DNA from: Balanoglossus misakiensis
Lineage: Eukaryota; Animalia; Hemichordata
Reading direction: 5' to 3'
Assembly (NCBI GenBank): GCA_040954595.2
Contig: CM082587.2
Coordinates: 7,863,705-7,927,704, forward strand
DNA: 64,000 nt
In this document: positions 6,843 through 34,100 of the stretch, piece after piece
How the letters are laid out: every line of letters begins with the position of its first letter
Position numbering within the stretch: position 1 is the stretch's first letter
Notes under the pieces: model-generated
Database searches by the model: none
What the model was told of the DNA's origin: nothing
What the model saw: only the letters and a program-made list of their open reading frames with translations
Translations under genes and position numbers: made by a program

Positions 6843-9800
6843 ATGTCGACTTTGACGGTATTTCTAGCGTTTTCTACCATTCTTATGGTCTCTGCAGACT
6901 ACAGCTGGAACTCGTATAGTAGTAGCAGCGACGTGGAGGAAGACAACATATTCTGTAAGTAAAATCTGGAGCGAAAAACATGCACAGTCAAATCACACAC
7001 TCGCGTCGTGATGGCGTAACAACGTCAAAAGGAACGTTGTTTTATGGTCAATTAACCTATGCCAATATGATCGTGTGAGGTATTCTTGAGTTACGGTGGT
7101 CAAATTCATCATGTATACAGTGCATGCAGTGAGTGTGGCTGGGTTTGCGTATAGGATGTTTTCCCGTTTACGGCAACTGATTGATTGCGTTTATATTCAC
7201 AAGTCATATAGGCATGGTGTAACGTGATATGTGATATAGACAAGGTTTTGTGATAGACTTTTGTTCAAGTTGTCTACCACACCACACCACACCACACCAC
7301 AAGGTATTTTTCGCGCTTTAAATGCAATTGATCACTTACAAAGATCGAGAGAATATTAGTAATTCATCGCAGTCTCGATACTGCATATTGTAACCGGAGG
7401 CCCTTTTGTCACTTGCAAGTTGAGCGAACATGGTGCATGCACCTCTGCTTATGGCAAACGGCAAGCGTATCATCGCAGGCTACGTTTAACTTACTTTATT
7501 TCTAATCAAATGTCTATAATTTGAATAGATAAATCGAGAATTGGAGACTTGTGAATGATCAGATAGTTGCATAGATCCGCCCTTCACTAGAGATTATTCC
7601 TGTGTTGGTCTACACATGTTTATCATGATGTTTAAATTAAAAGCCGGGATTAGGCTACACCACCAAGAATGATACCGAATTATTCAGATTGTCTTAACCT
7701 GAAAAGTGCGGTAAAACGATACGAAAATGGACTGCTTATAGCTGTGATCAAGCTTATCTCCACTGCATCTTGTCAGAATCAAACGATGTCAACAATGGTT
7801 AGGTCATGCATGAAGATATTTATTTGTATTTGATACATACCTGGTCTTGTATTTGCGAAGTCAATGACCTTAAAGTCAGTTTACATTTCACAACGTGAAC
7901 ATTTTCAGTGCCAGTTATCAACAAACGACATACGCGGAGTTGAAGCATCATTTTTGTGGCCAAAATATGCGTTATAAAGACAAACATTATTAACAAATAA
8001 TAGCTTGACGACACAATTTATCGAAACACTTTCAATTTACTTATTTCCCCAGCTATCATAAACATTACGTAGTTAAATTCATTTCAAAAGTAAGGATATA
8101 CCTTTCAAACAGTTACTTTTGGTTAACCGTGGCAGGCAGACACTTAGGCCAAAGGTCACGGAGCGAATGGCCATTACGTCGCTAACGAGATCTGTAATTC
8201 ACCAAGCTTTATTGAATCAGCCTGGATATTATAAGATTAAATTATCCGCACCCCATCCTACTGTGTAGCGGAGATACCAAACTAACTTTTTAGTAGTCCA
8301 GTGCACTGTTACATTAATTTCTTCTGTTGGTTCATCCGCTGTTTATTTCATATTCAATGCAAACAGAAGTTAGATTGAAGTTAGATAGACAGTTCACCCC
8401 GGCGATAGGGGCGTTGATAAAAGTTTGTAGCCCGGCGCCAAAACACAGCTAGTGGCGACTTTACCTTTGCTTACCAACTGAATTACCTCATGAGGAAAAG
8501 TAGCTGGTAATTTGCACCCATCCCTCCCTGGCTCTATAGCTCGTCTTCAAGTTCTGCGCCAATTTCGCTTAAACACCCCCCCCCCCCCTGACTGCGCACA
8601 TTTGTACAATTGGCCAAAGGTGGCGAGGGATTTTATCCGTACCAAAAATCAATTGTCCGCAGTAAACGCGGTGCCGTAAGTGTGACACATCAGATGTCTG
8701 GGTGAAGGCGGTATACATTTTGAGCAATACTGTACACACGGAAATGTTAATAGTTCTGACGATGGCCCGTTCTCACTTCTTTAAATAATCCTTTGTTTTC
8801 ATTCGGATCTTGGATGGCCGAGCACTATCATATCTCAATTCCTTTTTCTTTCATTCAGCATATAACGGCGCTGTTTATGAGTTTGTGGACGAACAGCACA
8901 CATGGAAACAGGCATACAAGAACTGTTACGAAAAGGGAGGGAAGTTAGCAAGAGTGGACAACGGTCGAACACATGAATTACTGGTGCAGTTCATTGAAAA
9001 TATGGATTTACCAGGAAAAGGTGCGTACATGTGTATTTCGATTTTGTTTTGTACATTTAATAGTCGGATAACTGTTACTATGACTTGGTCTTCAGTTGAC
9101 AAAATGTGTATAGCCTTTTGAATCACAAAACCGCTCATGTACTGGACTTCATCGATCAGTTGTTATTTGTGATTATATTATATCATATAATTAAGCAATA
9201 ACCCCCGCCGCAGGCGGGTATACACGAGATTTTGGTACAATTCGAGACATATAGCACGATACTATTAGGTGATGTCACCTCCATTCTCGGTTACCTTTGC
9301 GAGTTAGCGAAGATCGGTGCTTTGTTCGACAAATATACAAAGTCTGGGTTTTGTTTTGTTTTGTTTACCTATGAATAAACAAATGAAGAATTCCTGTATT
9401 GTTTCCACGCAGGATATTGGATCGACGGAAATGACAGAGCTACCGAGGGTGTCTGGGTACATCTCGACACCAGTCCTCTCGACTTCACCCCGTGGGGAAC
9501 CGACGAACCCGACAACGGCGCTGGAACCAAAACCAACGAAGACTGTCTGATGATGTCATGGTACAGACAACAATGATTTTAACAGAATACACGCTTACCG
9601 AATGATTTCCCGCTTAAACTTGTTGCCCTTAGATACATTTCTATCTGAGTTAATTAAGACAGACATTACCCGTCTCCAAAGACCACGGATAATCGAAATC
9701 ATTTTTCTTACTAACATCTCGTAAAAATACAAGACATGATACCGCTGGATTATTTGCACGTCAAGCTTGCATCCCTGATGGAAATGTCGTTTTTCCACCA

Positions 9801-10090
9801 GTGATCTGACAGAGTGCAACACGGCATATCACATGTAAATTAAATAACTATGTCGAATCTCCTATTTTCAACTACCAATTCAGTAGTACAAAGTGCTGGC
9901 GAACGTTTCTGAGATGTGATCGGCTCGGATATGTCAGGACAACACATTTTCTCTCACATGAAATTAAATTCAATGGATTTAGATTTACCACAGAAACATT
10001 TACGTATATCATTTTCATGTAGGTGGCATGATTATTCATGGAGCGACCGCAGCTGCGATGATCAGGAGTTTAATTCTATATGTCAATATG
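6843..10090 (+). CDS. Secreted C-type lectin domain protein, unit 1 (EPD/WSD motifs); last exon unresolved
   Basis: Exons 6843-6954 (signal peptide MSTLTVFLAFSTILMVSA), 8859-9020, 9413-9560, 10023-10090; CTLD motifs TWKQAYKNC..GGKLA, YWIDGND..EGVW, WGTDEPDN, EDCLMM, WSDRSC, ICQY. Ends in a phase-1 donor; candidate acceptors before 10525 (stop ~10598) or before 10611. Confidence 0.88.
7277..7301. repeat. (CCACA)n microsatellite
   Basis: About five tandem CCACA units in lectin intron 1. Confidence 0.8.
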
Positions 10091-10645
10091 GTAAGAAGAG
10101 ACCTACATATAGACTTTAGCCCATGAGTCGCTTGGTGATTTTTCGTCTTTATAAATATTCTCAATACTTTTAGTGTATTTGCTTGTTTTGAGCGAGTTTC
10201 TGGTACTTAGCTGAGTTTCGAATTCGGGGCTAGGCTCCTGGTTTCGGTACAACATAGACGTGAAGCAAGACTAACATCATGCATAATGAATAGTGGTCGA
10301 GTCATAAGCTCGTTGCAGGCGCTCGTTGGTTCATTCTGTAGGCTTATTTATCTAGTGCACTATCCGTTGACTTACGGTGATTGACATATTTGAAATGCAA
10401 GGACCTCATTTCCGACGTTGTGTTGACATAAATATTTTGTCGTCAACGTACACTAATTAGCATTACATATGAAATAATTACTGCTTATTTAAAATAATCA
10501 TTCTTTCCTGTGTCCAAATTGTAGTAATTATAACCAAAGAGAAAATAGAATACATAACATGTCCGGCCTCCCGTGACAAACCTCATATTATAACTTGAAA
10601 TCATCTGCAGAACTTCAACGAATTGTAGATAATTTTTTTACCAAG

Positions 10646-12931
10646 ATGATGGCATGGCTAACATTTCTGGTTTCGATTCTGTTGGTTCTTACAGCAGATG
10701 ACAGTTGGGTGGAAGGTTCGGCAAGTGGCGAAGAAGAATGGGTCATATGTGAGTATTCGTGGTTTTGTTCATGTTGTGTTGAGCTAAATACATACTGGAT
10801 ATTTCAGCGTGCTTCAAGGATTGAAACGAGAAACTGCAGTTGATAAACAGAACAAAAGTGCTAGGAAAAACAGCAAATAATTGCACCAAGTGGAGTTATG
10901 AGTCTTAATATATACTAAAGGTGGATGATCGTAACGGATAGGGTGTACACCTGTCGTGTACTAGTAGGGCCTATAATAATATTCGAAATATTATATACGA
11001 ATATCGAAATTCACATGTACAGCACGGCATTGGAAATACAACGACTGTAAATGAGTGATGTTATTCTCGTCGTTGCACAGCATACAATGGCATTGTGTAC
11101 CAGCTTATGGAGGATTTAACAAACTGGAAACAAGCAAGTAAGAATTGCCAAGATCTGGGTGGAGAACTGGCCCGAATTACCAGTAATGAGCTTCAGGAAG
11201 TCATTGTGGATGCAATCAACAAGAAAAACTCACCTGGAAGAGGTATTTGTAATTTTTGGTGTCCATTTAAAGATTCGCTTTCTTTCAAAATTTATAGAAC
11301 GTATTTTTTAATATATAGAGAGGACCACCAGCGACGAATCTTGTATATAGTAAAACCTGTCATATCCATTTTAGTGTTGAAATAATGCTTTACTTCGACA
11401 GTCGATGGCACTTTTAAACAGCAAATACAATAAAAACACAGACAGACAGGTTTTTATGACATGCATTGACCAGTTGCATTCTAGTACAATTATACCGGAT
11501 CTGCTGTCTCGACCACATCTCCAAAACATCCCCCAACGGCCAAACATGCCTAAAAGATTCCATTCTCTAAACGTACAGGATACTGGATCGATGGAAATGA
11601 CATATCCGCTGAAGGTGAGTGGGTTTATTCCGACCGGACACCGTTGCAATTCACGGCATGGGGGTACGAGGAACCCAACAGTGGAGCCGAACAGAACATC
11701 GATGAGGACTGTTTAATGATGCTGTGGTAAGCTGAGATTTTTTTCGCTAGCTAAAACCTTACAATTTCCAGTTCACAAAGCTTACTTCATAACTGCTCTG
11801 TTTGCTATGGGCTTCTTGAATTTCTAAGTCGATGTACTGCATTCAGTAAATGTTGTAAGACAATAATATGGTTTAATTATACACTTAATTTTTTTTTACA
11901 AAATGTCTTTCAATTCACCTTTGCCGGTCCGGGAGTAAACCGTTGTTGCATGAACCTTACCTGTACAAAGACAATGCTGGGTGTAAGTTCGCTAAAGTCC
12001 TCACCTTGCCAGATTGGCAGTACCCTGGCGAATAATACGTTTGCACAGTATATCGCCGTGAATTTCACATCATGTGGCGGCCATTTTGGGCCAGAACCTT
12101 GACAAATGTTTGATGCATTCACTGTTAGACGCAATCTGATTAAAATCAGATGTAGGGAACGGTGACGTGTTTTTTTTATATAAAAAAACCCACGTCGCCG
12201 TTCCTAAATCTGCTTTTAATCAGATTGTGTTAGACGTTAGCAAAGCACAGCCGGTTATAGAATTGGCTCTTGAAACCAGGCAATTTCCATAGATGGCTAA
12301 CTCCCTATCTCCAAGGCGATACTGACGGTGCGCGTTTGTTTGCAGGTGGCACAGCTATCAATGGAGCGATCACAATTGCGAGGACGAAGAGCTGTTCAAT
12401 TCAATATGCCAATTTGGTAAGTGCTGAAAATGTCGACAACTGCCGCTGTCAGTTTAGCTGAATACCGCCTCTGAGATTTTAGTGGAAGGATACTAACAAT
12501 TGCATCAGTACAGAAGGGCATTCTCGTGATTCTGCGCACTAATTGTACCATATAATCATTGTAATACCACATTTGGAACACTCGTTGCAAATTGTGCTCG
12601 TGGTGTGTGTGCATGTAATTCTCTGCGTCTGATAATTGCAGGTGAGTCTCCACTAGTACCGGTGATGTCCTGTACCGTGGAAACCAACATCGATAGGAAA
12701 GGCAGCGATCTCAACAACGGGCGTTACAACGTGGTCGAAAGTCCGGAAGCTTGCTGCAAATCTTGTCAAGACGACCCCGAGTGTCTGGCCTGGACCTTTG
12801 ACAAGCGCCCGGACAGCTATGGAAATTGTTGGCTGAAGGACGAGGTACCTCCACAGACCTACAGTTCCTGCTGCGATTCTGGCTACGTGGCGGAGAGACT
12901 TGAAGACGTCGGTAGCTGGAAAGGCTTTTGA
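10646..12931 (+). CDS. Secreted C-type lectin (EPN/WSD) plus C-terminal PAN/Apple domain, ~257 aa, unit 2
   Basis: Exons 10646-10748 (signal peptide MMAWLTFLVSILLVLTA), 11081-11242, 11579-11726, 12346-12416, 12642-12931. The 162- and 148-nt exons match unit 1. Last exon C..ETNIDRKGSDL...SPEACCKSCQDDPECLAWTF...NCWLK...CDSG fits a PAN/Apple pattern. Confidence 0.88.
12132..12227. mobile_element. ~96-bp palindromic MITE, 9-bp TSD, copy 2 of the 5952 family
   Basis: CAATCTGATTAAAATCAGATGTAGGGAAC...TTTTAATCAGATTG; TSD TGTTAGACG at 12123-12131 and 12228-12236. Confidence 0.9.
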
Positions 12932-14364
12932 GTCGGGGTGTGTCGAACCAGGACTCCCGTTAAGAAATGAATTCGAATGCACGTACCGTGTACGAGAAGT
13001 TGGAATAAATCGCAAAATAAGTTCCAAGTAAATCGCGTGTGTTGTGTACATTTGTGTGTTGATGAGAAAGTTTGTACTAAGTCCGGTAAATTATTAACTG
13101 GTGATCGTGACTATCTGTTATCTGTTTTCATCATTTCTATTATGTCCTTGACTATAATTCGGAGTATTGCCGTGTTGATCTTCGGTACAACATGAATTAA
13201 AGTTATGTAGCACTCTGGGATCAACAGTTGGAATTACAGCATGAGCTTAACTATAATGTGATAGCAACCCAACCCCATGGACAGAGGAATGTGGACGGAA
13301 ACTAGGTTTTTAGTCCACTGACACAGTCACTGCTAACAAGCGCGTACCGAAATTCTGGCATAATTTCCTATTGCACTTATAGACGTGCAATCTTTGGGTT
13401 ATCAAAAACACACAATGAATAATTATAAAAGTGTTTAATATAATTATTAATGATTATTATCATTTACAAGTAGGCTAATTACAAAAATACCACACTACGG
13501 TACGCTGCTTTCCCTATAATGATGTTAAATACTGAAAAAAGGAAGGGGCAAATTAGTATTAGTATTAGTACAAGTACTGACTCATTAATGACACGATCCC
13601 CGCAGGAGGCGTATGTAGACGACTCTTTCCTTGTTGCATACCGTTTTCTTCTTTTATTAATAATACTCCTCTTTTGGCACCTTTTGTGAAAATTTCAAGA
13701 ATATTTCCCGTTTCCTCAAAAAGACAACTTGGGTGTGGCATATTGGGATATTTCAACTTGCACCGATATCAAAATAAAAATTGTGTTTGTAGAAAAAATG
13801 GATCTCTACCAAGCTGAAAGATTTTGCTATGCAAAACAGGTAATTGCGCCTTCACATTAAAATATTCTCAGCTGTGACATTAATTTGCGCCCTCAAGAAT
13901 AGTATTTTTGCTTTCTTTCTGGTATTTTGACACAGTGGAGTTCAATTTAAACAAATCTCTAAAAAGAAATAAATTGGTTGTCATCAGAAAAGATTACGCT
14001 GTCCAAATCCGTTCAACCTGTGGCAAAGAACAGTCAACTCAGTCTCCGAGCTGCATGTGAAGAACTAAAACAAAACTTTCACATTCGCGTGGCGTTGAGG
14101 GCGATGTATGGTTGTGAAACGTCACATCATGGCGGCGGGTTTGAAGTGAATGGAGCGAGCGCGAAATATTGTTTCTGAGATACTGGTTCCTAGAATTCGC
14201 CAGCGGTCCTGCTGCAAGTTTTATCACAGGTTAGTAAATATTCCATTATCCTATCGCCGATTGTTAAATTTCCATCAAAAATGGACGTTATTTCGAACAA
14301 AGACTCCACAACTCGAAGTACTGCGTGACAGTCGGGTGGATGACTTTATCAGATGCGTCCAGTG

Positions 14365-14918
14365 TAGCTGCAATAATTGTAGCCTTGGTGGGTTGGGTGA
14401 TCGCTGTCGCCCCCACCAGGGCTACAAGGCGTTCCTATACTTTTGTACGTAAAACTGCACTGCGGATCCGCAGTGCGCGGACAAGGCAAACTCTGGGGCC
14501 CATCAGCAGCGATGTACTCCTTGCAGCTGAAAAATGACAGTTTAATCACTCGGACACAAAGTCAATTCAAACTCCGCCGCCATTTTGTATTGCGAGATAT
14601 ATACGAGACAAAATGGCGGCGGAGTTTGAATTGACTTTGTGTCTGAGTGATTAAACTGTCATTTTTCAGCTGCAAGGAGTACATTTGTCCGTCGATATGG
14701 GGTTACAACGCTGCTAACATTATCCGGGAACAGGATTACGGTTATATTTTCAAACGGAGAGGCGATATTCGCTGCTGATGGGCCCCAGAGTTTGCCTTGT
14801 CCGCGCACTGCGGATCCGCAGTGCAGGTTTACGTACAAAAGTATAGGAACGCCTTGTAGCCCTGGTGGGGCCGACAGCGATCACCCAACCCACCAAGGCT
14901 ACAATTATATTGCAGCTA
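14365..14918. mobile_element. 554-bp foldback MITE with nested palindromes and 9-bp TSD
   Basis: ~148-bp outer TIRs (14365-14512 vs 14769-14918), inner near-perfect palindrome ~14512-14684; flanks CGTCCAGTG (14356-14364) and CGTTCAGTG (14919-14927). Confidence 0.9.
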
Positions 14919-15276
14919 CGTTCAGTGCATCACTGACGGTAATACTCCGAGACTAGGGAAGCGGTGAGGGTCGTACAATTCTCCCTGCCTTAAATAGGGT
15001 TGTGCTACCTAGGTGACTGATAAAAACCTCACATGGTCGACACAATTTCATCATCACGATGTTTACCACGCATGTTTATGAAATGAGAGTTAAAGTGATA
15101 TTCAGTCATTGGGTAACCCAGCTCTCTGGAAGAAGGTAAGATGTGCAACTGCAAAGTTTAATCACAGATCGACCATTCCCAAGGATATGTTTCATAGAAG
15201 TTTATTTCTTCTCACGATTGGAATAATGAACATAATGATGTGATCGAAGCAAACGTGCTTGACAAGTCAGAAGTAT

Positions 15277-17452
15277 TCAATCTTGAACAGCTACATTGTA
15301 AAATGGGAACGTGCCTCCGAAATCTCTTCGAAAAGGAGCGCCTGGAAAAAAAAAACATTCAGATTTTCTATCATGTATCTTTGTTGTGATTTGCTTTAAT
15401 ACTAATACGGTATACCTAGAATATCCAATGAATTAGAACCGTTGTGTACATACATGATGCTATAATTCAGTACGTTTTTAATATCGTACATTAAATGTGA
15501 CAAGTTAATCTTTTATATTAAGCAGACACTGTATTGTTTGTCATATTGAGCTGTCAGACTACTAGTATTTTTATTGGGCTGATATAAAAGTGCCATAACT
15601 TAGGGAGTTGGTTGTTGTTGCTGTTGTTGTTGTTCTTTAGTATAAAACAGCAGAAGTTGTCAAACGCATCGTTCACATTGATTAGTGCTCGCTTACCTGG
15701 GTTCAACTGCAAGACAGAATGGGCGTATGTTGCAACATCATAGAGATTGCACACGCAGTCATCAAAATCATCGTTGCAGGCGTCTTCCACCTGGACACAC
15801 CCTCCTTCAACCTCATCGCAGACAATCCCACCATCAGCGCACACTAGACACAAAATCGGAGCTTGTTAGAGGTCTAACAATTAGATGTATACAGGTACAC
15901 TTGAAAGCCCCAGTAACTCCAACTGTTGCCATTCGTAGTTTGAAAACTTTGAACAATGCTCAGAACCTGCTTCTTACATCCGGGTAGTTAGTTCATTAAA
16001 CCATATAGACATGTCCCATGATGCATTCAGTTTCGCCGATCACGTGGTACATAGTGCAGCAGTATGCAATTTCATTTGACTCAAACAAATTTAATGAAAC
16101 GTTATATGATGAGAATTATGTCCTCGAATGCTTTGTGTGGTTGTATTATGTAAATTTTGTTACGTAATGAACTGTTGCTAGGAGATGACAATTTTAACCT
16201 AGCTAGGGGGTATGACTGGCAGTCAGACTCCACTGAGTCAATCTCTGTCCGGAGAATGAAAGATCACGTGATAATGTGCTTGGAATAATTGTTTTAAGTA
16301 CAATGTACCTACCATCATAGCCAAACCTAAAGATATATGCCGTGACTGCATACTTTTGGTAAAGCGAAGCTCCTTCAAAATCAACAACGCCTGAAAAGGA
16401 TAAACATACAGAAACATCAAAGTCATCTAGTTCTTGCATGTTGAAATAATATTTCATGGCTGCAGTATGGGTAACATACAATACATATTGTGCATAAAAA
16501 CGTGCAACAACTAACTTTAAGTGTAGTTAAGAGTTTAAAGAAATGTCTTAATGATTTTCAGTATGGCCTAACATTAATTTGAACTTCCTATGAAGTTCCA
16601 TTTGCAAAATATTATAGAAATCCGATAACTTGGAATGCTTTTGAGCAAGTGAGAATTTTATGACTCGTCTAGGTAGCAAAATACTACTCAGGAAAGTGAC
16701 TTAAATATTCAAAGGAAATGACGTTGTGGAAACAGACTTTTCTGAAGATAGATAAATAAGTTCCATACCATTTTCAAAAAGTTTGAATATGGCATCCACA
16801 GTTCTGCATATGTCATCAGCTGCGAACAGATCTTCAGGTGGACAAGTTTTGCACAAGAAGTCCCCACAATCACGCAGCGTCCTACACTCTACGTCACAGG
16901 AATGTACCATTTCTACAGGGTGACAAGGCATCTCGTCTGCAGCTGGGCATTCTGAAATTTTGTGTGTTTTTCGAAGTGGTTAATAAAATTGTTTGGAATA
17001 CTTATAAATTGACAGAAATGTGTTCAGTTTTTCAACAGTGACGAAAATTGGTGATTCTTAAGAAACTACTACATAACTATATATTGTTGAAGTCGCGTAT
17101 GTTAATTTAAGAACATTTATCAACCAATCAGTGCTTACCGTCGTCTCCCAGTTCTTGTTTCAAAATTTTCATCATATCTGCCTCGGTAAAAGGCAGTAAC
17201 CCCTAAATTAAACAAATTTAGAGTGTTGTATGTCACTATAATGCTCACACTCTTAAGAAAATACACCATCAGAAGCGGAATAAAATGCCAATGCAACATA
17301 AGAGCTTGTCATGTTCATTTTAACTTCTCGCAAAGAAGGTTTAACTTAAGATGTGGATCGGTTTGATAGGGAAATAATATAATGGCACTTACGGCATCGA
17401 CGACAAGGGTGGACAGGGAAAGCGCGACCACAAATACGTTCAAATGAAGCAT
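15277..17452 (-). CDS. Unrecognised secreted acidic Cys-rich protein, paralog A (198 aa, 6 exons)
   Basis: Exons 17452-17393 (MLHLNVFVVALSLSTLVVDA), 17202-17139, 16951-16769, 16390-16313, 15843-15697, 15341-15277; GT/AG and phases conserved in all three copies; frame intact; 14 Cys. Confidence 0.88.
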
Positions 17453-18884
17453 GGTTTCTCTTCTGTACGTTCTCTCGACTGGTCTGTACTGTGATTCGAG
17501 CTATGCATCTGACACAGTGACTATATATGCTTTTTTGAAGGACACGATTAATCTTCGTTTGGGCCATTAGCTCAATTTTATCACTTCACCGGAAATTTGT
17601 GGCCATGGACTTAATGTTTCCCAGGTACCATTTCTTGTAATCAATCCTCCATCAAGTTAAATTTCTTCCTGGTTTGTCAATGTCATGTGAAATTTAATCA
17701 TACTAATTTGGAACACCGCGGGAGATTGTCGATTCTACTCTCAAAACTGATCAGACTTGAATTAGCAGTTTTCTAAATTTTCAATGCCAAATAAAATCGC
17801 TATACTCAAGATGGGGCAATGGTAGCAGATTTTACTGTGGTCTCTCATATATTTGTTGAATCTACCCCACTCCATACTTTATATACCTCAGGTGAAGCAA
17901 TACACTTACATGAACTACGGATAGGCTGGTTATTTGTTTAAAAGCAGAAATGTGAGTATTCTTCATATTTATTGGGTAGAAATCGCGTTAGGGTCCTTTT
18001 ACCCCATTCAATTAACGGGGGAATTTGGTTTTTGTTTTATAATTGTAAAAGGTGAAACTTTTCGTATCAAAACATTTAAAATCATTACGTACATGAATTA
18101 AAAATATGTTTAGATTCATTTTATGACAACTATGAATCTGCGTACCCTATGGTAGGACCCTGGCTATATGATCCTTAAAATTTCTGAATATAATTTTGAT
18201 TCGTCATTTTGTATGCAAGTGAGGTCAAATTCAAAAGTGCATTATTTAATTAGAAAGTTATTACATGCCTTAAAACGCTCCTCGGGGACAAATTTGTAGA
18301 TGTTCATATTCTTGTTTTCATGAAAATCGCTACTAAATGCTAAAGATTATCCCTAGCTGGAAATCGTGTATCGAGTAATTCTTTAATGCTTGTAATCTTA
18401 CACCAATTGTAATTGCTTTCTGGTCATGATTTCAATGACGGTCAGCTGTACAACCGGTATACGATATGATAATAATAATAACACTAATTTGGAATTAAGC
18501 CATCAACTGTGAAAATAAAACGTAATTTTTCTCAAAAATGGCTCGAGAAAAAATTCAGTATCATTTCCTGGTCTTTTTAGTCCCAAATAAGATTAGAATC
18601 TACAATCTCCCGCGTTGTTCCATATTAGTATGATTAAATTTCACATCACATTTGCAAAACCAGGAAGAAATTATATATCATGGAGGATTGATTACAAGAA
18701 ATAGTAGCTGAGATATACAAATTTTTACCACATGATTTCCCGTGTAATGATAATAATTACGGAGATAATGGCCCAAACGAAGTTTAATTGTGTCATTCAA
18801 AAACATATTATATATACATGTAGTGTCAGATGCATGGCTGGAACACAGTACAGACCAGTCGAGAGAACGTACAGAAGAGCAAAC

Positions 18885-20945
18885 ATGCTTCATTTCAACG
18901 TATTTGTGGTCGCGTTTTCCCTGTCCAGCCTTGTCGTCGATGCCGTAAGTGCCATTATATTATTCCCAATCAAACCGATCCACGTGTTAAGTTAAACCTT
19001 CTTTGCGAGAAGTTGAAATGGACATGACAAGCTCTTATTGGCATTTTATTTCGCTTCTGCTGTTGTATTTTCTTAAAAGTGTGAGCATTGTTTGCGCGAT
19101 GACTCCACGACAATATTTTTATAATATCATTGCAGTAAAGTGACGAACAACACTCTAAATCTGTTTATTTTAGGGGTTACTGCCTTTTTCCGAAGCAGAT
19201 ATGATGAAATTTGTGAAACAAGATATGGTACCCGATGGTAAGTCACACTCGGCCCTTGCTACTGTCTTTACTTTATCATTCACAAATGGAAAAATATAAC
19301 TTAACATTGGCAAATATCACCCTCGTTGACAGTAATGTCGATATTAAGCAGTGCTGTACTAGTAAGGTTGTAACATATGTTCGAAAAAATACAACACATT
19401 GTCACGGTTTATTTTCTAGTTTCCCTTTGCCTTCAATGTGTCCTGCATCAGTGAATATTGAGCGACAAGTAGACATTCGACGCGTTGACCTCTGCAAACG
19501 AGCGCTGATTGGTTGATAAAAATTGTGATACAGTGATGTGATAGATTCTCAAGAATCGCAAGTTTTTCGTGACTGTTGAAAATGGCTAAGAGCAAATTTC
19601 TGTTCATTTGTAAGTATTCCAAACAATTTTACTAACCACTACCAAAAAAACACTCATAATTTCAGGATGCCCAGCCGCAGACGAAATGCTTTGTCACCCT
19701 GTACAAATGGTTCATTCCTGTGACGTAGAGTGTAGGACGATGCGTGATTGTGGGGAGTTCTTGTGCAAAACTTGTCCGTCGGAGGATCCGTTCGAGGCTG
19801 AATACGTATGCAGCGCTGTGGATGCCATAAACAAACTTTTTGAAAATGGTATGGAACTTATTTATCTATGATCTTCACTGAAAAAAGTATCATTGTTTCC
19901 AGAACTGGATGACATTTGATCTTTCTGTATGTTTATCCTTTTCAGGCGTTATTGATATTGAAGGATCTTCGCTTGAACAAAAATATTCAGTCACGGCAAC
20001 AATCTTGACGGCAGGTTATGAAGGTTAGTTAAAATTGTCATCTCCTAGCAAAAGTTCATTACGTAACAAAATTTACACAATACAACCACACAAAGCATTC
20101 GAGGACATATTTCGCATCATATAACGTTTCATTAAATTTGTTTGGGTCACATGAAATTACATACTGCTGCACTATGTACCACGTGATCGGCGAAACTGAA
20201 TGCATCATGGGACATGTCTATATGGTTTAATGAACTAACTACCCGGATGTAAGAAGCAGGTTCTGAGCTTTGTTCATAGTTTTCAAACTACGAATGGCAA
20301 CAGTTGGAGTTACTGGGGCTTGCAAGTGTACCTGAAAGGACCCTACTTATACATCTAATTGTTAGACCTCTAACAAGCTCCGATTTTGTGTTTAGTGTGT
20401 GCTGATGGTGGGATTGTCTGCGATGAGGTTGAAGGAGGGTGTGTCCAGTTGGAGGACGCCTGCGACGATGATTTTGATGACTGCGTGTGCAATCTCTATG
20501 ATGTTGCAACACTCGCCAATATCATCTTGAACCAAGGTAAGGTAGCACTAATTAATGAGAACGATGCGTTTGACAACTTCTGCTGTTTTATACTAAAGAA
20601 CAACAACAACAACAACCAACTCCCTAAGTTATGGCACTTTTATCTCAGTCCAATAATAATAATAGTAGTCTGACAGCTCAATATGACAAACAATACAGTG
20701 TCTGTTTAATAAAAAAGATTAACTTGTCACATTTAATGTACGATATTAAAAACGTACTGAATTATAGCGCCATGTATATACACACAGCGGTTTTAATTCA
20801 TTGGATAGTTTTAGTTCGTTGTATAGTTTTAAAGTAAATCACAAGAAAGATACATGATAGAAAATCTGATTTTTTTCCAGACTCTCCTTTCCGAAGAGAT
20901 TTCGGAGGCACGTTCCCATTTTACAATGTAGCTGTTCAAGATTGA
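18885..20945 (+). CDS. Unrecognised secreted acidic Cys-rich protein, paralog B (196 aa, 6 exons)
   Basis: Exons 18885-18944, 19174-19237, 19666-19848, 19946-20023, 20396-20536, 20881-20945 (591 nt). MLHFNVFVVAFSLSSLVVDA-GLLPFSEADMMKF...CPAADEMLCHPVQMVHSCDVECRTMRDCGEFLCKTC...VCADGGIVCDEVEGGCVQLEDACDDDFDDCVC...DSPFRRDFGGTFPFYNVAVQD. Confidence 0.88.
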
Positions 20946-21683
20946 ATACTTCTGACTTGTCAAACACGTTTGGTTCGATCACATCATTATGTTCATTATT
21001 CCAATTATGAGAAGAAATAAACTACTATGAAACATATCCTTGTTGGGAATGTTCGATGTGCGATTAAATTCAAATGATTTCATCTTTACTGTAACACTCT
21101 GTTAAGTACTGCACTCTGTTCGTCGCGTCATGGCCAAGTGCAAGGCATCGATCGACCGACCATAGCTTTGAACCCCCATTTCTAAATCATTGAAGTTCAT
21201 CGTGTAACAATCATCAGGCGACTGTGACCCAAGCAATGCATTAGGTGCAACCTTACAAAGTAAAGACCACTTGGCGTGTGACATGATAATAACATGTGCC
21301 ATCAGGAGGAGCCAGGTAGTTACATTGAGTTCAATGGCCTAACACTGTTCATTCGATAAACTGAAACTAATATCCCCGAGTTGGACGTTCTCCTCTGGCA
21401 GATCGACAGCCTTACTTGGATGAACTTGTCTTTATATCTCGATTTTTTTTCTCGGACGGCACATCACTGCTTAACGGGCGGGAAATGCGTTTGATCCCGA
21501 GCAGATTTTGGCTGTCCGATCCCTCTGTTTTATGATTTGACGAGACTTTGTTTCTGCAAAATCTAACCTGGGAAATACATTTTTGGATTGAAGTAAACCT
21601 GCTCGCCGTGACCTTTTCACTTTTATTTATTAAAGGGACAAAGTCTCTCTCTCGCTGCCCTTTTCCATTAATTATGTTTGATG

Positions 21684-21806
21684 CAAGACATCGCATTTTG
21701 AGTTCTATTACCATGCAAATATCAAAATCGACGATAGCAGACTGCGTTTCCTGACCCTCTGTGTGAAAGTCTACCTAAAACACACCGGGGTCTAGATTCC
21801 AGACTA
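21684..21806 (-). mobile_element. Left half (inverted) of a split TAGTCTGG-type MITE
   Basis: Ends in GGGGTCTAGATTCCAGACTA (21787-21806) followed by GTAAGCGTA, the reverse complement of the target site seen empty at 17901-17909; 21684-21710 is an inverted duplicate of 24544-24570. Confidence 0.7.
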
Positions 21807-22287
21807 GTAAGCGTATTGCTTCACCTAAGGTATATAAAATATGAAGTGGGGTAGATTCAACAGAGGTGTCAAATGCCATTGATAAATCATCCACCATTGC
21901 CACATCTTGAGTATATATGTAACTATTTTATTTGGCTTTGATAATTTAGAAAACTCATCATTCACATCAGTTTTTTAGTTTGGAGATAATTATAAGATTA
22001 GGATCGACAATCTCCCGCGTTGTTTCATATTAGTATGATTAAATTTTCACATCACATTTGCAAAACCAGGAAGAAATTATACATCATGGAGGATTGATTA
22101 CAAGAAATGGTAACTGGGAAACATTAATTCTGACCACGCGATTTCCCGTGTAATGAAAAATACGGAGATAATGGCCCAAACGAAGTTTAATTGTGTCATT
22201 CAAAAACATATTATATATACATGTAGTATCAGATGCATAGCTGGAACACAGTACAGACCGGTCGAGAGAACGTACAGAAAAGCAACC

Positions 22288-24346
22288 ATGTTTCATTTGA
22301 ACGTATTTGTGGTCGCGTTTTCCCTGTCCAGCCTTGTCGTCGATGCCGTAAGTGCCATTATATTATTCCCAATCAAACCGATCCACATGTTAAGTTCAAC
22401 CTTCTTTGCGAGAAGTTAAAATGAACATGACAAGCTCTTTATATTGGCATTTTATTTCGCTTCTGCTGTTGTATTTTCTGAAAAGTGTGAGCATTGTTTG
22501 CGCGATGACTCCACGACAATATTTTTATAATATCATTGCAGTATAGTGACAAACAACACTCTAAAAAAATTGTTTAATTTAGGGGTTACTGCCTTTTACC
22601 CAATCAGATTTGATGAAAATGTTGAAACAAGACCGGGCAGACGATGGTAAGTCACACTCGGCCCTTGCTACTGACTTTACTTTATCATTCACAAATTTAA
22701 TGAAAAAAAAATAACTTAAAGTTGGCAAATATCACCCTCGTTAACAGTAATGTAAATATGAATGGATCGATATTAAGCAGTGCCAGTGTAAGTAGACATT
22801 CGACCCGTTGACCTCTGCAAACAAGCGCTGATTGGTTGATACGCACCTTTTCGTGACTGTAGAAATTGTTGAATTTGAATGGAGCAAATTTCTGTCAATT
22901 TGTAAGTATCCCAAACAATTTTACTAACCACTACCAAAAAAACACTCATAATTTCAGAATGCCCAGCCGCAGACGAGATGCTTTGTCGCCCATATCAGAT
23001 GATACATTACTGTGACGTAGAGTGTAGGACGCTGCGTGATTGTGGGGACTTCTTGTGCAAAATTTGTCCACCTGCGTATCAGTCAGCAGCTGAATACGTA
23101 TGCAGCGCTGTGGATGCCATAAACAAACTTTTTGCAAATGGTATGGAACTTATTTATCTATGATCTTCACTGAGAAAAGTCTCATTGTTTCCAGAACTGG
23201 ATGACATTTATGTTTCTGTATGTTAATCCTTTTCAGGCGTTATTGATTTTGAAGGAGCTTCGCTTCAACAAAAGTATTCAGTCACGGCAGATATCTTTGG
23301 GTTAGGATATGATGGTAGGTACATCATCACGTGTTCTTTTATTCTCCGTACAGAGATTGACTGGAGTCTGACTGCCAGTCATACCTTATCTCCTAGCAAC
23401 ATTAATAACGTAACAATATTGACATAATACAACCACATAAAGCATTCGAGGACATATTTCTCATCATGTAACGTTTCATTAAATTTGTTTGGGTAACATG
23501 AAATTGCATACTGATCGGCTAAACTGAATGCATTATGGGACATGTCTGTATGATTTAATGAACTAACTACCCGGATGTAAGAAGCAGGTTCTGAGCTTAG
23601 TCTGGTTCCCTGCCCCAATCCCACCGCTGGGGCAGGGAACCAGACTAGTTCTGAGCTTTGTTCAAAGTTTTCAAACTACGAATGGCAACAGTTGGAGTTA
23701 CTGGGGCTTTCAAGTGTATCTGAAAAGACTCTACTTATACATCCAATAGTTAGACCTCTAACAAGCTCCGATTTTGTGTCTAGTGTGCGCTGATGGTGGG
23801 ATTGTCTGCGATGAGGTTGAAGGAGGGTGTGTCCAGGTGGAAGACGCCTGCAACGATGATTTTGATGACTGCGTGTGCAATCTCTATGATGTTGCAACAT
23901 ACGCCCATTCTGTCTTGAACCCAGGTAAGCAAGCACTAATCAATGTGAACGATGCGTTTGACAACTTCTGGTTTTTTATACTAAAGAACAACAACAACAA
24001 CAGCAACAACAACCAACTCCCTAAGTTATGGCACTTTTATCTCAGCCCAATAAAAATACTAGTAGTCTGACAGCTCAATATGACAAACAATACAGTGTCT
24101 GCTTAATATAAAAGATTAACTTGTCACATTTAGTGAACGATATTTAAAAACGTACTGAATAATAGCGCCATGTATGTACACAGCGGTTTTAATTCATTGG
24201 ATGATTTTAGGTTTACCGTATTATTAATATTAAAGTAAATCACAACAAAGATACATGATAGAAAATCTGATTTGTTTCCAGACTCTCCTTTCCGAAGAGA
24301 TTTCGGAGGCACGTTCCCATTTTACAATGTAGCTGTTCAAGATTGA
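22288..24346 (+). CDS. Unrecognised secreted acidic Cys-rich protein, paralog C (196 aa, 6 exons)
   Basis: Exons 22288-22347, 22583-22646, 22958-23140, 23237-23314, 23784-23924, 24282-24346; same exon sizes as B, frame intact, same 14 Cys. Confidence 0.88.
23598..23647. mobile_element. 50-bp MITE with 20-bp perfect TIRs and 10-bp TSD in intron 4 of paralog C
   Basis: TAGTCTGGTTCCCTGCCCCA...TGGGGCAGGGAACCAGACTA; TSD GTTCTGAGCT at 23588-23597 and 23648-23657; the site is empty in paralogs B (~20260) and A (~15960). Confidence 0.95.
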
Positions 24347-24543: not shown

Positions 24544-24674
24544 TAATAGAACTCAAAATGCGATGCCTTGGCAACGAGGTCACCACGCGATCTGGACTCT
24601 GAAGTCGTTCAAGTCAATCACCTTACGTGACACACTAATGATTGGCCGGAGCACGGGGTCTGGATTCCAGACTA
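24544..24674 (+). mobile_element. Right half of the split TAGTCTGG-type MITE
   Basis: Ends in GGGGTCTGGATTCCAGACTA (24655-24674) followed by TACGCTTTAC and then sequence homologous to 17910-18050. Confidence 0.7.
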
Positions 24675-24908
24675 TACGCTTTACATGAACTACGGAAAGA
24701 CTGGTTATGTGTATAAGAGCAGAAATGTACATATTCTTCATATTTATTGGGTAGAAATGGAGTTTGGGTCGTTTTATCCCATTCAATCGAGGGGTGAACT
24801 TGGTATGTGTTTTATAATTGTAGAAGAATATTAAACGACGGTGAAGTGCGCTGGCTAAATGACTCCCTAAGCTATTGGTAGAAAGAAGAAAGAGTCTTGT
24901 CAGACAGT

Positions 24909-27427: not shown

Positions 27428-29624
27428 ATGACTTCTAGGTGAGTTTGGAACAATGTGCATTAAGATTTTTTGAAAGCATATGCATGGAAGTGTTCTTCTT
27501 TTTATTTAAAAAAAAATGTTTATGTGTTTTTGTTCTATTGGTTCGTGATTTTACTATCCTTAGTTCAAACATATTCTGAAGCTTGAGTCTCAGAAGGAAT
27601 ATTCATGACAGTTTGACGGGAAAAACAGCTGCAAATATAAATTGTTGTGCACAAACTGCAGTCTCAATTATGCTAATATTATTTGAAAGCATTATTCGTA
27701 ATTTTGCCACTATGTGGAATTAAATACATTGTATTCTAAAAGGTGAAAATTTCTCTTTCTCATCACAGATCAACAAGGCTGTCCATCTTCGCATCCACAG
27801 CAGTGTTAGCGGCGTTTATTGTCCAATCAAATTCCCTAAGTACGTGCGTTTTGTAAATCACTAAGTCTTGTTTTAACTTCAACTATATAAGTTTTGTAAA
27901 TCACTAAGTCTTGTTTTAACTTCAACTATTATATACGGTCGGTATAGTGTGACGCCTTCACACAAATGCGTAACGTTGTTTGCTTCAAAGAAGTTCTGCT
28001 TGATTGTTTCATGGAAAACTTGGAATTTCGCGGGTCCGTCTGTTTCCAGTGTCTACAGATTTATCACCTTCGGTACCGAGTTTTGGCATAACTCTTGTAG
28101 AAATAAAATATTTCTATCTTTTGCACACTATCCGATCTTCGGAAAATAATATATTTTCTTTCGTTGTCGTTTTTCCAAGATGTTGGTACTGGTACGTTTA
28201 CTATCACCACGCCCTCGCCGCTTACCACTGGCATGTGCAACGCCATTACTGCTGTCACCTTCAATCTGAACGTGTGTGAAGTTGGCGGTACTACTGCTGG
28301 CTCGATTACCGCGGTGACGTTGTACTACGCCGACAATGTAAACTTCGAAGCCGCTATCGAGAAGTCTCTTGCCGGGGTAGCAGCTACGTTAGCTGGCGGT
28401 GCTGCGACGATTGACGTCCCTGCTGGAGGCGGCGCATCAATCACTGGCGCAACTGCTACGCTGGCGGCCGAAGGCACCCCATGTACGGCCGGTGCCCTGA
28501 CTCACATCTGTGCAGTAGTGACCGTCACCGGTGATTCTGGTGCTATTAATGACGATTCCTGCATCGCCATTGATGGCGGAACTACGAGTACCAGTAACTG
28601 TCCAGGTACGATGTACCCCTCTTGTAGACATAATGATTTCGGGCAAATAGGACTGTAACCAAAAAGCCCTTTGGTGCATGGCTCCTTCCGTCAATTTACC
28701 AGAGTGGGATTTATTTCAAAAACTTGTATTTCACCGTTTCAATCACACGTTTTCTCTTTCTCGCACAAAAAGTATAATTCATGTATGCATTTCAGATGTT
28801 TCTGCCGGAGCTCTCACAGTGTCTAATCCATCCACTCTGTCCTACACCGCTGGTAGCTCAACACCAACAACTGCAACTATCTCGATGGATGTTACCGTAA
28901 TGAGGCGGGAAATGCAGCCGACGGTTCGCTGACCGAGATAAACTTGTATTTCACCAACAACGCCCAGTACGAGTCGGCCACAACCGTATCTTCTGCGGCC
29001 AGAGCATCCAAGCCAGTGTCCGGAACACCGACAGCCATAACAAAAGGGGCGACCACAACCATAGCGGATGCAACGGTGGAACTGACAGTCGATGAAGCTG
29101 ACTGCGCAGCTTACACGCACCTCTGCGCTGTCATCACAGTAGCGACAGACGACGGCGGGGCAGCCGATGACGATACATGCTTAAGCCTCGATGCTACAAA
29201 TGCTGGTGTCGTTACATGTCCGGGTGGGTTTAACCTGACAACAATTACTGTGCAAATTCCTTCGAACCGGTGTTTACTTCGAATGCCTAGTACCAGCAGA
29301 CCTGAATAAATTTTTAAGTGCATGTATTCACAATCACGCAGGATACATGTGTTCAATTATTTTTCAAACAACTTATATTCATACATTTGTAGTTTGGAAA
29401 TTGCAAAGTCCATCCATGAGAATGTGGTGATTTTTGCGAAGTACTCTGTTGGCTGAAACGCTCGCCGCTGCGAATTGTTTCTTTATATTCATATGCCAAC
29501 TTTTCTGCCATCAGACAATGGTTCTGGAGGAGGATATGGAGTAGATCGAACTGCTGTTTATATCTTTGTTGTTGTGGCGCAATTGGTGTTTACTCTTGTT
29601 GTTTCCAAGCCTTTCTTGCAGTAG
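27428..29624 (+). CDS. Secreted, probably GPI-anchored protein with two ~142-aa Thr/Ala/Gly-rich Cys-containing repeats; 1-bp frameshift in repeat 2
   Basis: Exons 27428-27438, 27769-27839 (signal peptide RLSIFASTAVLAAFIVQSNS), 28180-28605, 28796-29223 (428 nt, one short of a multiple of 3), 29515-29624 (DNGSGGG then hydrophobic tail AVYIFVVVAQLVFTLVV). Both repeats end C..THI/LCAVV/ITV...DD.C...CP; phase-1 exons. Confidence 0.8.
27848..27929. repeat. Intronic tandem duplication, 43-bp period
   Basis: GTTTTGTAAATCACTAAGTCTTGTTTTAACTTCAACTAT at 27848-27886 and 27891-27929. Confidence 0.9.
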
Positions 29625-31128: not shown

Positions 31129-34100
31129 GCCATAGCTCATGAAAATTATCAAAAAATGACCATTATTCGACTTTCTGAAAGATAAAAAATTCTTCGATTT
31201 TTGATAAAAATCATGGGTTATAGCTCATGAAAATCATTAAAAAATGACAATTTTTCGACTTTTCGAAACATCAAAATTTCTTCACTCTTTGATAAAAATC
31301 ATGGGTTATAGCTCATGAAAATCATCAAAAAATGACAATTTTTCGACTTTCCGAAATATCGAAAATTCTTCATTTTTTGATAAAAATCATGGGTTATAGC
31401 TAATGAAAATCATCAAAAAATGACCATTTTTCGACTTTCCGAAACATCAACAATTCTTCATTTTTTAATAAAATTCATGGGTTATAGGTCATGAAAATCA
31501 TCAAACAATGACCATTTTTCGACTTTCCGAAACATCGAAAATTCTTCATTTTTTGATAAAAATCATGGGTTATAGCCCATGAAAATCATCAAAAAATGAC
31601 CTTTTTTCGACTTTCCGAAACATCGAAAATTCTTCATTTTTTCATAAAAATCATGGGTTATAGCTCAAGAAAATCATCAAAAAATGACCATTTTTCGACT
31701 TTCCGAAACAACAAAAATTCTTCATTTTTTGTTAAAAATCATGGGTTATAGCTCATGAAAATCATCAAAAAATGAACATTTTTCGACTTTCCGAAACATC
31801 AAAAATTCTTCATTCTTTGATAAAAATCATGGGTTATAGCTCATGAAAATTATCAAAAAATGACCATTTTTCGACTTTCCGAAACATCAAAAATTCTTCA
31901 CCCTTTGATAAAAATCATGGGTTATAGCTCAAGAAAATCATCAAAAAATGACCATTTTTCGACTTTCCGAAACAACAAAAATTCTTCATTTTTTGATAAA
32001 AATCATGGGTTATAGCTCATGAAAATCATCAAAAAATGACAATTTTTCGACTTTCCGAAACATCAAAAATTCTTCATTTTTTGATAAAAATAATGGGTTA
32101 TAGCTCATGAAAATCATCAAAAAATGACCATTTTTCGTCTTTCCGAAACATCAAAAATTCTTCATTTTTTGATAAAAATCATGGGTTATAGGTCATGAAA
32201 ATCATCAAAAATGACAATTTTTCGACTTTCCGAAACATCAAAAATTCTTCATTTTTTGATAAAATTCATAGGTTATAGCTCATGAAAATCATCAAAAAAT
32301 GACAATTTTTCGACTTTCCGAAACATCAAAAATTCTTCATTTTTTGATAAAATTCATGGGTTATAGCTCATGAAAATCAACAAATGACAATTTTTCGACT
32401 TTCCGAAACATCAAAAATTCTTCATTTTTTGATAAAATTCATGGGTTATAGCTCATGGAAATCATCAAAAAATGACCATTTTTCGACTTTCCGAAACATC
32501 GAAAATTCTTCATTTTTTGATAAAAATCATGGGTTATAGCTCATGAAAATCATCAAAAAATGAACATTTTTCGACTTTCCGAAACATCGAAAATTCTTCA
32601 TTTTTTGATAAAAATCATGGGTTATAGCTCATGAAAATCATCAAAAAATGACAATTTTTCGACTTTCCGAAACAACAAATATTCTTCATTTTTTGATAAA
32701 AATCATGGGTTATAGCTCATGAAAATCATCAAAAAATGACCATTTTTCGACTTTCCGAAACATCAAAAATTCTTCATTTTTTGATAAAAATCATGGGTTA
32801 TAGCTCACGAAAATCATCAAAAAATGACAATTTTTCGACTTTCCGAAACATCAAAAATTCTTCATTTTTTGATAAAATTCATGGGTTATAGCTCATGGAA
32901 ATCATCAAAAAATGACCATTTTTCGACTTTCCGAAACATCGAAAATTCTTCATTTTTTGATAAAAATCATGGGTTATAGCTCATGAAAATCATCAAAAAA
33001 TGACCATTTTTCGACTTTCCGAAACATCGAAAATTCTTCATTTTTTGATAAAAATCATGGGTTATAGCTCATGAAAATCATCAAAAAATGACAATTTTTC
33101 GACTTTCCGAAACAACAAATATTCTTCATTTTTTGATAAAAATCATGGGTTATAGCTCATGAAAATCATCAAAAAATGACAATTTTTCGACTTTCCGAAA
33201 CATCAAAAATTCTTCATTTTTTGATAAAAATCATGGGTTATAGCTCATGAAAATCATCAAAAAATGACAATTTTTCGACTTTCCGAAACATCAAAAATTC
33301 TTCATTTTTTGATAAAAATCATGGGTTATAGCTCATGAAAATCATCAAAAAATGACAATTTTTCGACTTTCCGAAACATCAAAAATTCTTCATTTTTTGA
33401 TAAAAATCATGGGTTATAGCTCATGAAAATCATCAAAAAATGACAATTTTTCGACTTTCCGAAACATCAAAAATTCTTCATTTTTTGATAAAAATCATAG
33501 GTTATAGCTCATGAAAATCATCAAAAAATGACCATTTTTCGACTTTCCGAAACATCAAAAATTCTTCATTTTTTGATAAAAATCATGGGTTATAGCTCAT
33601 GGAAGTCATCAAAAAATGACCATTTTTCGACTTTCCGAAACATCGAAAATTCTTCATTTTTTGATAAAAATCATGGGTTATAGCTCATTAAAATCATCAA
33701 AAAATGACAATTTTTCGACTTTTCGAAACATCAAAATTTCTTCACTCTTTGATAAAAATCATGGGTTATAGCTCATGAAAATCATCAAAAAATGACCATT
33801 TTTCGACTTTCCGAAACATCAAAAATTCTTCATTTTTTGATAAAAATCATGGGTTATAGCTCATGAAAATCATCAAAAAATGACAATTTTTCGACTTACC
33901 GAAACATCAAAAATTTTTCATTTTTTGATAAAAATCATGGGTTATAGCTCATGGAAGTCATCAAAAAATGACCATTTTTCGACTTTCCGAAACATCGAAA
34001 ATTCTTCATTTTTTGATAAAAATCATGGGTTATAGCTCATGAAAATCATCAAAAAATGACCATTTGTCGTCTTTCCCAAACATCAAAAATTCTTCATTTT

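What the first reader, a model, noticed from the sequence alone, without database searches (positions are those of the whole stretch)
15277..24346. Three-gene cluster of an unrecognised secreted 14-Cys protein with hypervariable patches
Seen: three intact 6-exon paralogs with closely similar introns but replacement-rich exons. In exon 4, A vs B differ at 12 codons, 10 non-synonymous (GVVDFEGASLYQKYAVTAYIFRFGYD / GVIDIEGSSLEQKYSVTATILTAGYE / GVIDFEGASLQQKYSVTADIFGLGYD). Exon 3 varies at PPEDLFAADDI / PSEDPFEAEYV / PPAYQSAAEYV. All 14 Cys and the tail PFRRDFGGTFPFYNVAVQD are invariant. Established: this pattern is typical of toxins, pheromones, gamete-recognition and immune effectors under diversifying selection. 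Inference: a lineage-specific recognition/effector family; I do not recognise the domain.
Basis: partly seen in the sequence, partly recalled or inferred. Interest (0 to 1): 0.8.

Follow-up and report, generated by a model that had tools for sequence, protein, structure and literature searches.

The report
Orphan 14-cysteine secreted protein cluster
Three intact neighbouring genes in an invertebrate (likely an acorn worm) are predicted to encode a small, acidic, secreted protein with 14 fixed cysteines and no relative that our searches found; its front half differs sharply between copies while its back half is nearly uniform, so it likely works as a diversifying recognition protein, probably in defence, though expression and function are untested.

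Summary
Observation confirmed: three intact six-exon paralogs (A minus strand; B, C plus), 196-198 aa, 78-82% identical, 14 invariant Cys, predicted signal peptide, net charge -20 to -26. They are under constraint: no frameshift where about 10 are expected (P~3e-5), TATA-like and AATAAA sites conserved. Variation clusters in exons 2-4; exon 5 of A and C is identical, pointing to gene conversion. Positive selection is suggestive, not proven: overall dN/dS ~1.2; a class of ~10% of codons at omega 5-11 is significant in 6 of 11 tests and lost under the most permissive nulls. The quoted 10 of 12 replacements is near neutral expectation. A second genome of the species has an intact B allele and apparently the order A, C-like, B. 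Transposon ends with an inverted target duplication flank C. No family or homologue found; searches were limited to single exons. Best reading: lineage-specific secreted recognition/defence family (0.4); relaxed young duplicates remain a strong rival (0.3).

The parts
15277..17452 (-). Paralog A, six exons (17452-17393, 17202-17139, 16951-16769, 16390-16313, 15843-15697, 15341-15277), 198 aa, 14 Cys; in-frame 6-nt insertion in exon 5
18885..20945 (+). Paralog B, six exons (18885-18944, 19174-19237, 19666-19848, 19946-20023, 20396-20536, 20881-20945), 196 aa; intact allele in genome B1 (L001)
22288..24346 (+). Paralog C, six exons (22288-22347, 22583-22646, 22958-23140, 23237-23314, 23784-23924, 24282-24346), 196 aa
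18885..18944 (+). Exon 1 (shown for B): 20-residue hydrophobic leader, predicted signal peptide; no other hydrophobic segment in the protein
   Evidence: hydropathy 1.87-1.93 vs at most 1.14 elsewhere; cleavage after residue 20 inferred from the -3/-1 rule, no signal-peptide program run
19174..20023 (+). Exons 2-4 (shown for B): variable half, with the 8-Cys module (spacing x7,x8,x3,x5,x4,x2,x11); all 8 three-state residues lie here
   Evidence: candidate selected codons 54, 113, 121, 125 (posterior >0.95)
20396..20945 (+). Exons 5-6 (shown for B): constant half, acidic 6-Cys module (spacing x6,x6,x6,x6,x1) and invariant tail after a single dibasic site; exon 5 of A and C identical over 141 aligned nt, exon 6 of B and C identical
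18587..18884 (+). Shared upstream region (shown for B; about 300 nt shared by all three, 480 nt by A and C) with a TATA-like box at -75/-76 in each copy; AATAAA 71-75 nt after each stop
21787..21815 (+). Transposon-type end followed by the reverse complement of the 9-nt site that lies uninterrupted upstream of A (about 17901-17909): left junction of an inversion that turned C round
   Evidence: interpretation inferred
24655..24826 (+). Second transposon-type end in the same direction, followed by the same target site (one extra base) and 146 nt matching the far side of A's upstream site (17906-18051, 86%): right junction
23598..23647 (.). 50-nt hairpin element with the same kind of end in C intron 4, flanked by a 10-nt target duplication; empty site in A and B

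Best explanation
The cluster is predicted to encode three versions of a small, acidic, disulfide-locked secreted protein that likely works as a binding (recognition) protein, probably against microbes or parasites in mucus or body fluid, with a variable front half and a constant back half. Steps: (1) shown in sequence: intact frames, 14 fixed Cys, variation clustered in exons 2-4, exons 5-6 partly identical between copies; (2) inferred: export through the exon-1 signal peptide and seven disulfides; (3) inferred: the exposed patches between the Cys of exon 3 and in exons 2 and 4 form the target-binding surface, and selection for different specificities keeps them apart; (4) inferred: gene conversion and unequal crossing-over homogenise introns, promoter and exons 5-6 and reshuffle the array between genomes, leaving a peak of divergence on exons 2-4; (5) inferred from composition only: the Asp-rich exon-5 module binds calcium and, with the tail, gives a function shared by all copies; (6) inferred: the head-to-head layout arose by a transposon-mediated inversion.
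For: Constraint: no frameshift vs ~10.5 expected; Cys 0 of 28 vs 51 of 349; conserved TATA-like and AATAAA sites; intact allele in a second genome. Excess replacement: 0-fold non-Cys sites of exons 2-4 vary at 38 of 191 vs 94 of 956 well-aligned intron columns (p=2e-4, region chosen after seeing the data) while 4-fold sites vary at 5 of 70; not a CpG effect (53 of 283 vs 84 of 908 non-CpG columns); 8 of 196 residues take three states vs about 1% of intron pseudo-codons (p 0.017-0.068). Site models put 9-15% of codons at omega 5-11 in all 11 fits, significant in 6. Under the permissive nulls the best fit has 84-100% of codons at omega about 1, which sits poorly with the frame and Cys constraint. 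Conversion: A-C exon 5 differs at 0 of 141 nt while exon 3 differs at 26 of 183; of 45 substitutions between the two B alleles, 15 fall where the B1 allele matches one paralog and the window allele the other. A divergence peak on exons with homogenised flanks is a described signature of selection under conversion (PMC3924837, passages). Alleles differ by 7 replacing and 1 silent change. Neighbours are a lectin/PAN gene and a TRAF gene, weak context only.
Against: Only three paralogs and one extra allele; 5 of 11 selection tests are not significant (p 0.06-0.36); the models are my own scripts, not codeml. Silent divergence in exons 2-4 is raised too (4-fold 5 of 33; exon 3 pS 0.13-0.20 vs pN 0.10-0.15). 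All 0-fold sites vs introns p=0.063, and 0-fold vs 4-fold p=0.12; allele pN/pS p=0.69. The intron filter lowers intron divergence; unfiltered, A-B and A-C exons do not exceed introns. Expression, tissue, ligand and calcium binding are all untested. A strongly acidic protein is unlike cationic antimicrobial peptides (own knowledge), so direct membrane killing is unlikely. Nothing here separates defence from reproductive or chemical-signal recognition.
Confidence: 0.4

Rival explanations
1. Young, dosage-type duplicates of a bulk secreted calcium-binding protein (mucus, matrix or mineral-associated). Only the frame, Cys and acidic module are constrained; the rest drifts, and patchy gene conversion makes the apparent variable half.
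For: dN/dS near 1 overall; selection signal lost with codon-level or exon-wide rate variation; conversion is evident; net charge -20 to -26; silent sites of exons 2-4 also raised.
Against: Needs exons 2-4 to diverge about twice as fast as adjacent well-aligned introns by chance of tract placement; three-state residues and transversion excess (48 tv to 21 ts vs 51 to 43 in introns); with exon rate tied to intron rate the omega>1 class is significant (p 0.0014 and 0.031).
Confidence: 0.3
2. Reproductive or chemical-signal recognition: a gamete-surface protein or water-borne pheromone whose variants match variant receptors.
For: Same sequence evidence as the best reading; small acidic disulfide-rich secreted proteins are typical of water-borne protein pheromones, and gamete-recognition proteins evolve fast (own knowledge, not tested); no detectable relative fits rapid turnover.
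Against: Three co-existing divergent paralogs in a reshuffling array are more typical of defence families (own knowledge); no tissue data.
Confidence: 0.18
3. A defensive toxin or deterrent secreted in mucus.
For: Introns and signal exon more conserved than mature exons with KA near KS is the pattern described for venom genes (PMC7285919, passages).
Against: No match to any family in Pfam or solved structures; the pattern is not specific to toxins; strongly acidic.
Confidence: 0.07
4. A diverged member of a known extracellular family, or a prohormone whose invariant 15-residue tail is cut off at the dibasic site.
For: Exon 5 loosely recalls an LDL-receptor class A module and exon 3 an LNR or WAP module (recalled patterns); one conserved dibasic site precedes the invariant tail; only single exons could be searched.
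Against: No such family at E<=10 for any of six module sequences; defining motifs absent; tail invariance is explained by conversion (B-C exon 6 differs at 0 of 65 nt, silent sites included); no amidation glycine.
Confidence: 0.05

Closest known systems
SpTransformer (Sp185/333) immune genes of the purple sea urchin (PMC5491942; abstract and passages read)
   Same: Small, tightly clustered genes, family make-up likely differing among individuals, proposed gene conversion, codons under positive selection, restricted lineage.
   Different: SpTrf genes have two exons, mosaic elements and repeats, and Gly-rich, RGD and His-rich disordered proteins; these have six exons, no repeats, no RGD and a 14-Cys scaffold. 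A works-like comparison only; immune induction is untested here.
Accelerated exon evolution of snake-venom gene families (PMC7285919; passages read)
   Same: Introns, 3' flank and signal exon more alike than mature-protein exons; KA close to or above KS; Cys frame fixed.
   Different: Effect is weaker here (proteins 78-82% identical), confined to exons 2-4, and no venom organ, toxicity or toxin-family match is known.
Duplicates under gene conversion with a peak of divergence, such as human red/green opsins (PMC3924837; passages read)
   Same: Homogenised introns and constant exons around a divergent stretch.
   Different: There the selected residues and function are known; here neither is, and one copy is inverted.
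LDL-receptor class A, LNR and WAP cysteine modules (patterns recalled)
   Same: Small disulfide modules; exon 5 is Asp-rich with evenly spaced Cys; exon 3 has 8 Cys and begins Cys-Pro.
   Different: No profile match; spacing and defining motifs differ.

Membership tests
LDL-receptor class A module | Pfam profile match of the exon-5 module | tested here: not met
   0 families at E<=10 for exon 5 of A, B, C; 0 PDB sequences at E<=10
LDL-receptor class A module | Six Cys ending in an acidic calcium-cage motif before the last Cys (recalled) | tested here: not met
   Spacing x6,x6,x6,x6,x1; last two Cys are one residue apart
LDL-receptor class A module | Same fold | tested here: inconclusive
   Model pLDDT 62, pTM 0.33; searches uninformative
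LNR (LIN-12/Notch repeat) | Pfam match; six Cys with the acidic Gly-Asp-Cys end motif (recalled) | tested here: not met
   No hit for exon 3 of A, B, C; eight Cys, motif absent
WAP four-disulfide core | Eight Cys including an adjacent Cys-Cys pair (recalled); Pfam match | tested here: not met
   Eight Cys but no adjacent pair; no hit
Neurophysin (14 Cys) | Fourteen Cys with adjacent Cys-Cys pairs in one domain (recalled); Pfam match | tested here: not met
   Count matches, but no adjacent pairs and a 39-residue gap between two modules; no hit
Tetraspanin large extracellular loop (CD9) | Four membrane helices and CCG motif (recalled) | tested here: not met
   Weak match E=0.044; no membrane segment beyond the leader, no CCG
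SpTransformer | Two exons; Gly-rich, RGD and His-rich regions; element mosaics | tested here: not met
   Features from PMC5491942 abstract; six exons and none of these regions
SpTransformer | Induction by immune challenge and binding to microbes | not testable with these tools
   Needs animals and protein
Rapidly diversifying secreted Cys-rich families (working class) | Signal peptide, fixed Cys frame, tandem paralogs | tested here: met
   (signal peptide by hydropathy only)
Rapidly diversifying secreted Cys-rich families (working class) | Sites with dN/dS above 1 | tested here: inconclusive
   Significant in 6 of 11 tests
Rapidly diversifying secreted Cys-rich families (working class) | Expression in a secretory, immune or reproductive tissue | not testable with these tools

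The most novel reading that the evidence does not exclude
An undescribed two-module disulfide scaffold serves acorn worms as a germline variable-constant recognition system: exons 2-4 are a positively selected binding region, exons 5-6 a calcium-dependent constant region kept uniform by gene conversion, and the array is reshuffled between individuals, giving a hemichordate counterpart of lineage-specific immune families such as SpTransformer but on a new protein frame.
Probability: 0.2. Interest if true: 0.72.

Novelty: new variant of a known kind. Interest (0 to 1): 0.42.

Why it matters
Fast-evolving secreted cysteine-rich clusters are a familiar kind, but this scaffold matched nothing searched, and my keyword searches found no such family described for acorn worms; such searches cannot find an unnamed gene. 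If it is a recognition protein, three natural variants that share a frame and differ at a few patches make ligand and specificity directly testable in a group that bears on the origin of deuterostome immunity. It would also be a compact case of selection holding a divergence peak against gene conversion, with a visible transposon-made inversion. If the drift rival holds, it is an ordinary orphan triplet.

Tried and rejected
Own genome: none held. Pfam on five B exons and four A/C modules: only sub-threshold zinc-finger/TPR rows (E 0.02-0.11), rejected as Cys-composition noise; NCBIfam none; Rfam none. Protein database: exon 3 vs 106-2000 aa none, exon 5 vs 82-2000 aa 1 candidate, none at E<=1, exon-3 alignment vs 33-105 aa none; these need shared 5-residue words. 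Full HMMER scan of 1.84 billion representatives with the exon-3 profile: 2 hits at E 4e-4 and 6e-4, both repetitive spurious frames. PDB sequences: none for exon 5, CD9 loop E=0.044 for exon 3, rejected. Atlas: exon 3 best 0.81 (lead only); exon 5 best 0.93 to short unnamed clusters, one set with 35% dockerin and 142 of 256 shared features, taken only as an acidic-loop hint. AlphaFold2 on single modules: pLDDT 65 and 62; fold searches gave generic helical hits (best Z 5.4) and nothing for exon 5: no evidence either way. Metagenome scans: 0 of 82 candidates for exon 3; 1 of 596 scanned for exon 5, a chance 22-residue match in a bacterial-looking contig. Sequencing runs: no RNA holder listed, which is no evidence on expression. 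DNA search of invertebrate, vertebrate, plant, fungal and protist genomes with 1 kb of B: 88 genomes ranked, one real holder (same species), one 27-nt chance match, 4 aligned without match; protein-level searches of related animal genomes and the rest of B1 were not obtained. Earlier notes of the scan: nothing on this DNA. CpG hypermutation as the cause of the variable half: rejected. Papers seen only as search listings; PMC4280546 passages held nothing relevant. No supplements were opened; gene tables in genome papers could bear on novelty.
Full report
What is there. The region holds three copies of one six-exon gene: A on the minus strand (17452-15277), head-to-head with B (18885-20945) and C (22288-24346) on the plus strand. 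A tblastn of the three products against the window shows no fourth copy. All 15 introns are GT-AG with phases 0,1,1,1,1; frames are open (198, 196, 196 aa) with 14 Cys at identical positions. Products are 78-82% identical, 19.3-19.7 kDa after a 20-residue hydrophobic leader, net charge -20 to -26, with no glycosylation sequon and no second hydrophobic segment. Exon 3 carries an 8-Cys module, exon 5 an Asp-rich 6-Cys module, exon 6 an invariant tail after a dibasic site. Each copy has a TATA-like box at -75/-76 and AATAAA 71-75 nt after the stop. The genome is an invertebrate's; 'acorn worm' rests on other agents' notes on the same genome and was not tested here.

Are they functional? Very probably. 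Introns hold 36 gap runs, 26 not multiples of three; the 591 coding nt hold one in-frame 6-nt insertion, against about 10.5 frameshifts expected (P~3e-5). Cys codons are fixed at 0-fold positions (0 of 28 vs 51 of 349; p=0.021). The B allele in a second genome of the species is intact, with all splice sites. Transcription was not shown.

Is the variation selected? Pairwise dN/dS is 0.89, 1.35 and 0.99; a one-ratio model gives 1.24. Variable residues (56 of 196) are clustered (p=2e-4): 69 of 325 columns vary in exons 2-4, 19 of 266 in exons 1, 5, 6, and 94 of 956 in well-aligned introns; CpG does not explain it. My own codon models gave: M1a vs M2a p=2.3e-4 with 11% of codons at omega 10.7; with multi-nucleotide changes p=0.041, regional trees p=0.004, codon-rate variation p=0.24; exons 2-4 alone p=0.040, 0.26 and 0.36; calibrated on introns p=0.0014 (filtered) and 0.031 (unfiltered), or 0.062 and 0.14 with a free exon rate. 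That is 6 of 11 below 0.05. Against: silent sites in exons 2-4 are also raised (5 of 33 4-fold); exon vs unfiltered intron p is 0.36, 0.38 and 0.049; the region was chosen after looking. Verdict: suggestive, unproven with three sequences.

Gene conversion and reshuffling. Exon 5 of A and C differs at 0 of 141 aligned nt while their exon 3 differs at 26 of 183; exon 6 of B and C differs at 0 of 65. Of 45 substitutions between the window's B and the B1 allele, 33 match A or C; 15 lie where one allele matches one paralog and the other allele matches the other, among them six adjacent A-type bases upstream of the start and a switch to C's 3' flank about 100 nt after the stop. In B1 the hits run A (minus), a plus-strand copy matching query 1-426 at 90%, then B; the window's C gives the same interval at 89%. 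So B1 appears to read A, C-like, B where the window reads A, B, C; the middle copy itself was not fetched. The alleles differ by 7 replacing and 1 silent change (p=0.69). A peak of divergence on exons amid homogenised flanks is a described mark of selection under conversion (PMC3924837, passages).

Origin of the layout. Upstream of A a 9-nt site is uninterrupted. The two sides of that site flank C, each joined to a transposon-type end facing the same way: at 21806 the end is followed by the reverse complement of the site and the promoter; at 24674 by the site (one extra base) and 146 nt of the far flank. A 50-nt element with the same kind of end sits in C intron 4 with a 10-nt target duplication. 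I infer that a duplicated locus was inverted by a transposition event that used two ends.

What family? None found. Pfam, NCBIfam, PDB sequences, three word-seeded searches, a full HMMER scan of 1.84 billion representatives and two metagenome scans gave no credible relative. All used single exons of 20-60 residues, and related animal genomes were searched only by DNA, so distant relatives may exist. Recalled likenesses to LDL-receptor class A, LNR, WAP and neurophysin fail on spacing and motifs. Single-module models were low-confidence.

Mechanism. Most likely (0.4) a secreted binding protein with a variable front half and a constant, probably calcium-binding back half, diversified against varied targets, probably microbial. 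Frames, Cys, clustering and identity of the back half are shown; secretion, disulfides, selection, conversion, calcium and the target are inferred. Rivals: drift of a bulk secreted protein with patchy conversion (0.3), reproductive or pheromone recognition (0.18), deterrent toxin (0.07), hidden known family or prohormone (0.05). It works like SpTransformer in genome behaviour (PMC5491942, abstract and passages) and like venom gene families in exon-over-intron divergence (PMC7285919, passages), but is a member of neither.

Verdict. A real orphan family with an apparently undescribed scaffold and a familiar mode of evolution; interest 0.42, up to about 0.72 if the variable-constant recognition reading is shown.

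Noticed in passing
window 8860-12931 (+): Multi-exon gene with two C-type lectin domains (first exons at E 0.003 and 0.0008) ending in a PAN domain exon (E 8e-15), 2.3 kb from paralog A.
   Followed up: partly
window 27430-29620 (+): Gene with a likely leader, two Thr/Ala/Gly-rich domains of similar Cys layout (frames 28107-28658 and 28857-29309) and a possible hydrophobic C-terminal tail; no Pfam hit above threshold and no NCBIfam hit.
   Followed up: partly
window 31132-54959: An 88-nt satellite (176 copies, 31132-46569) is interrupted by 14 head-to-tail copies of a 553-nt unit, 96-99% alike, each opening with a 75-80-nt palindrome (46570-54413), then resumes for 5.5 copies.
   Followed up: no
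window 57845-59894 (+): TRAF-family gene exons: TRAF zinc finger and MATH domain (E 8e-9, 7e-29).
   Followed up: no
window 2946-3242 (-): Roadblock/LC7 dynein light chain exon (E 7e-10).
   Followed up: no
window 14364-14919: Nested foldback element: 150-nt inverted arms (97%) around a 173-nt palindrome, just downstream of paralog A.
   Followed up: no
L001:1-240: The DNA upstream of the B allele in B1 departs from the window beyond 18344 and holds 66 nt matching the window's B-C spacer in reverse (21693-21629), in line with a rearranged array.
   Followed up: partly
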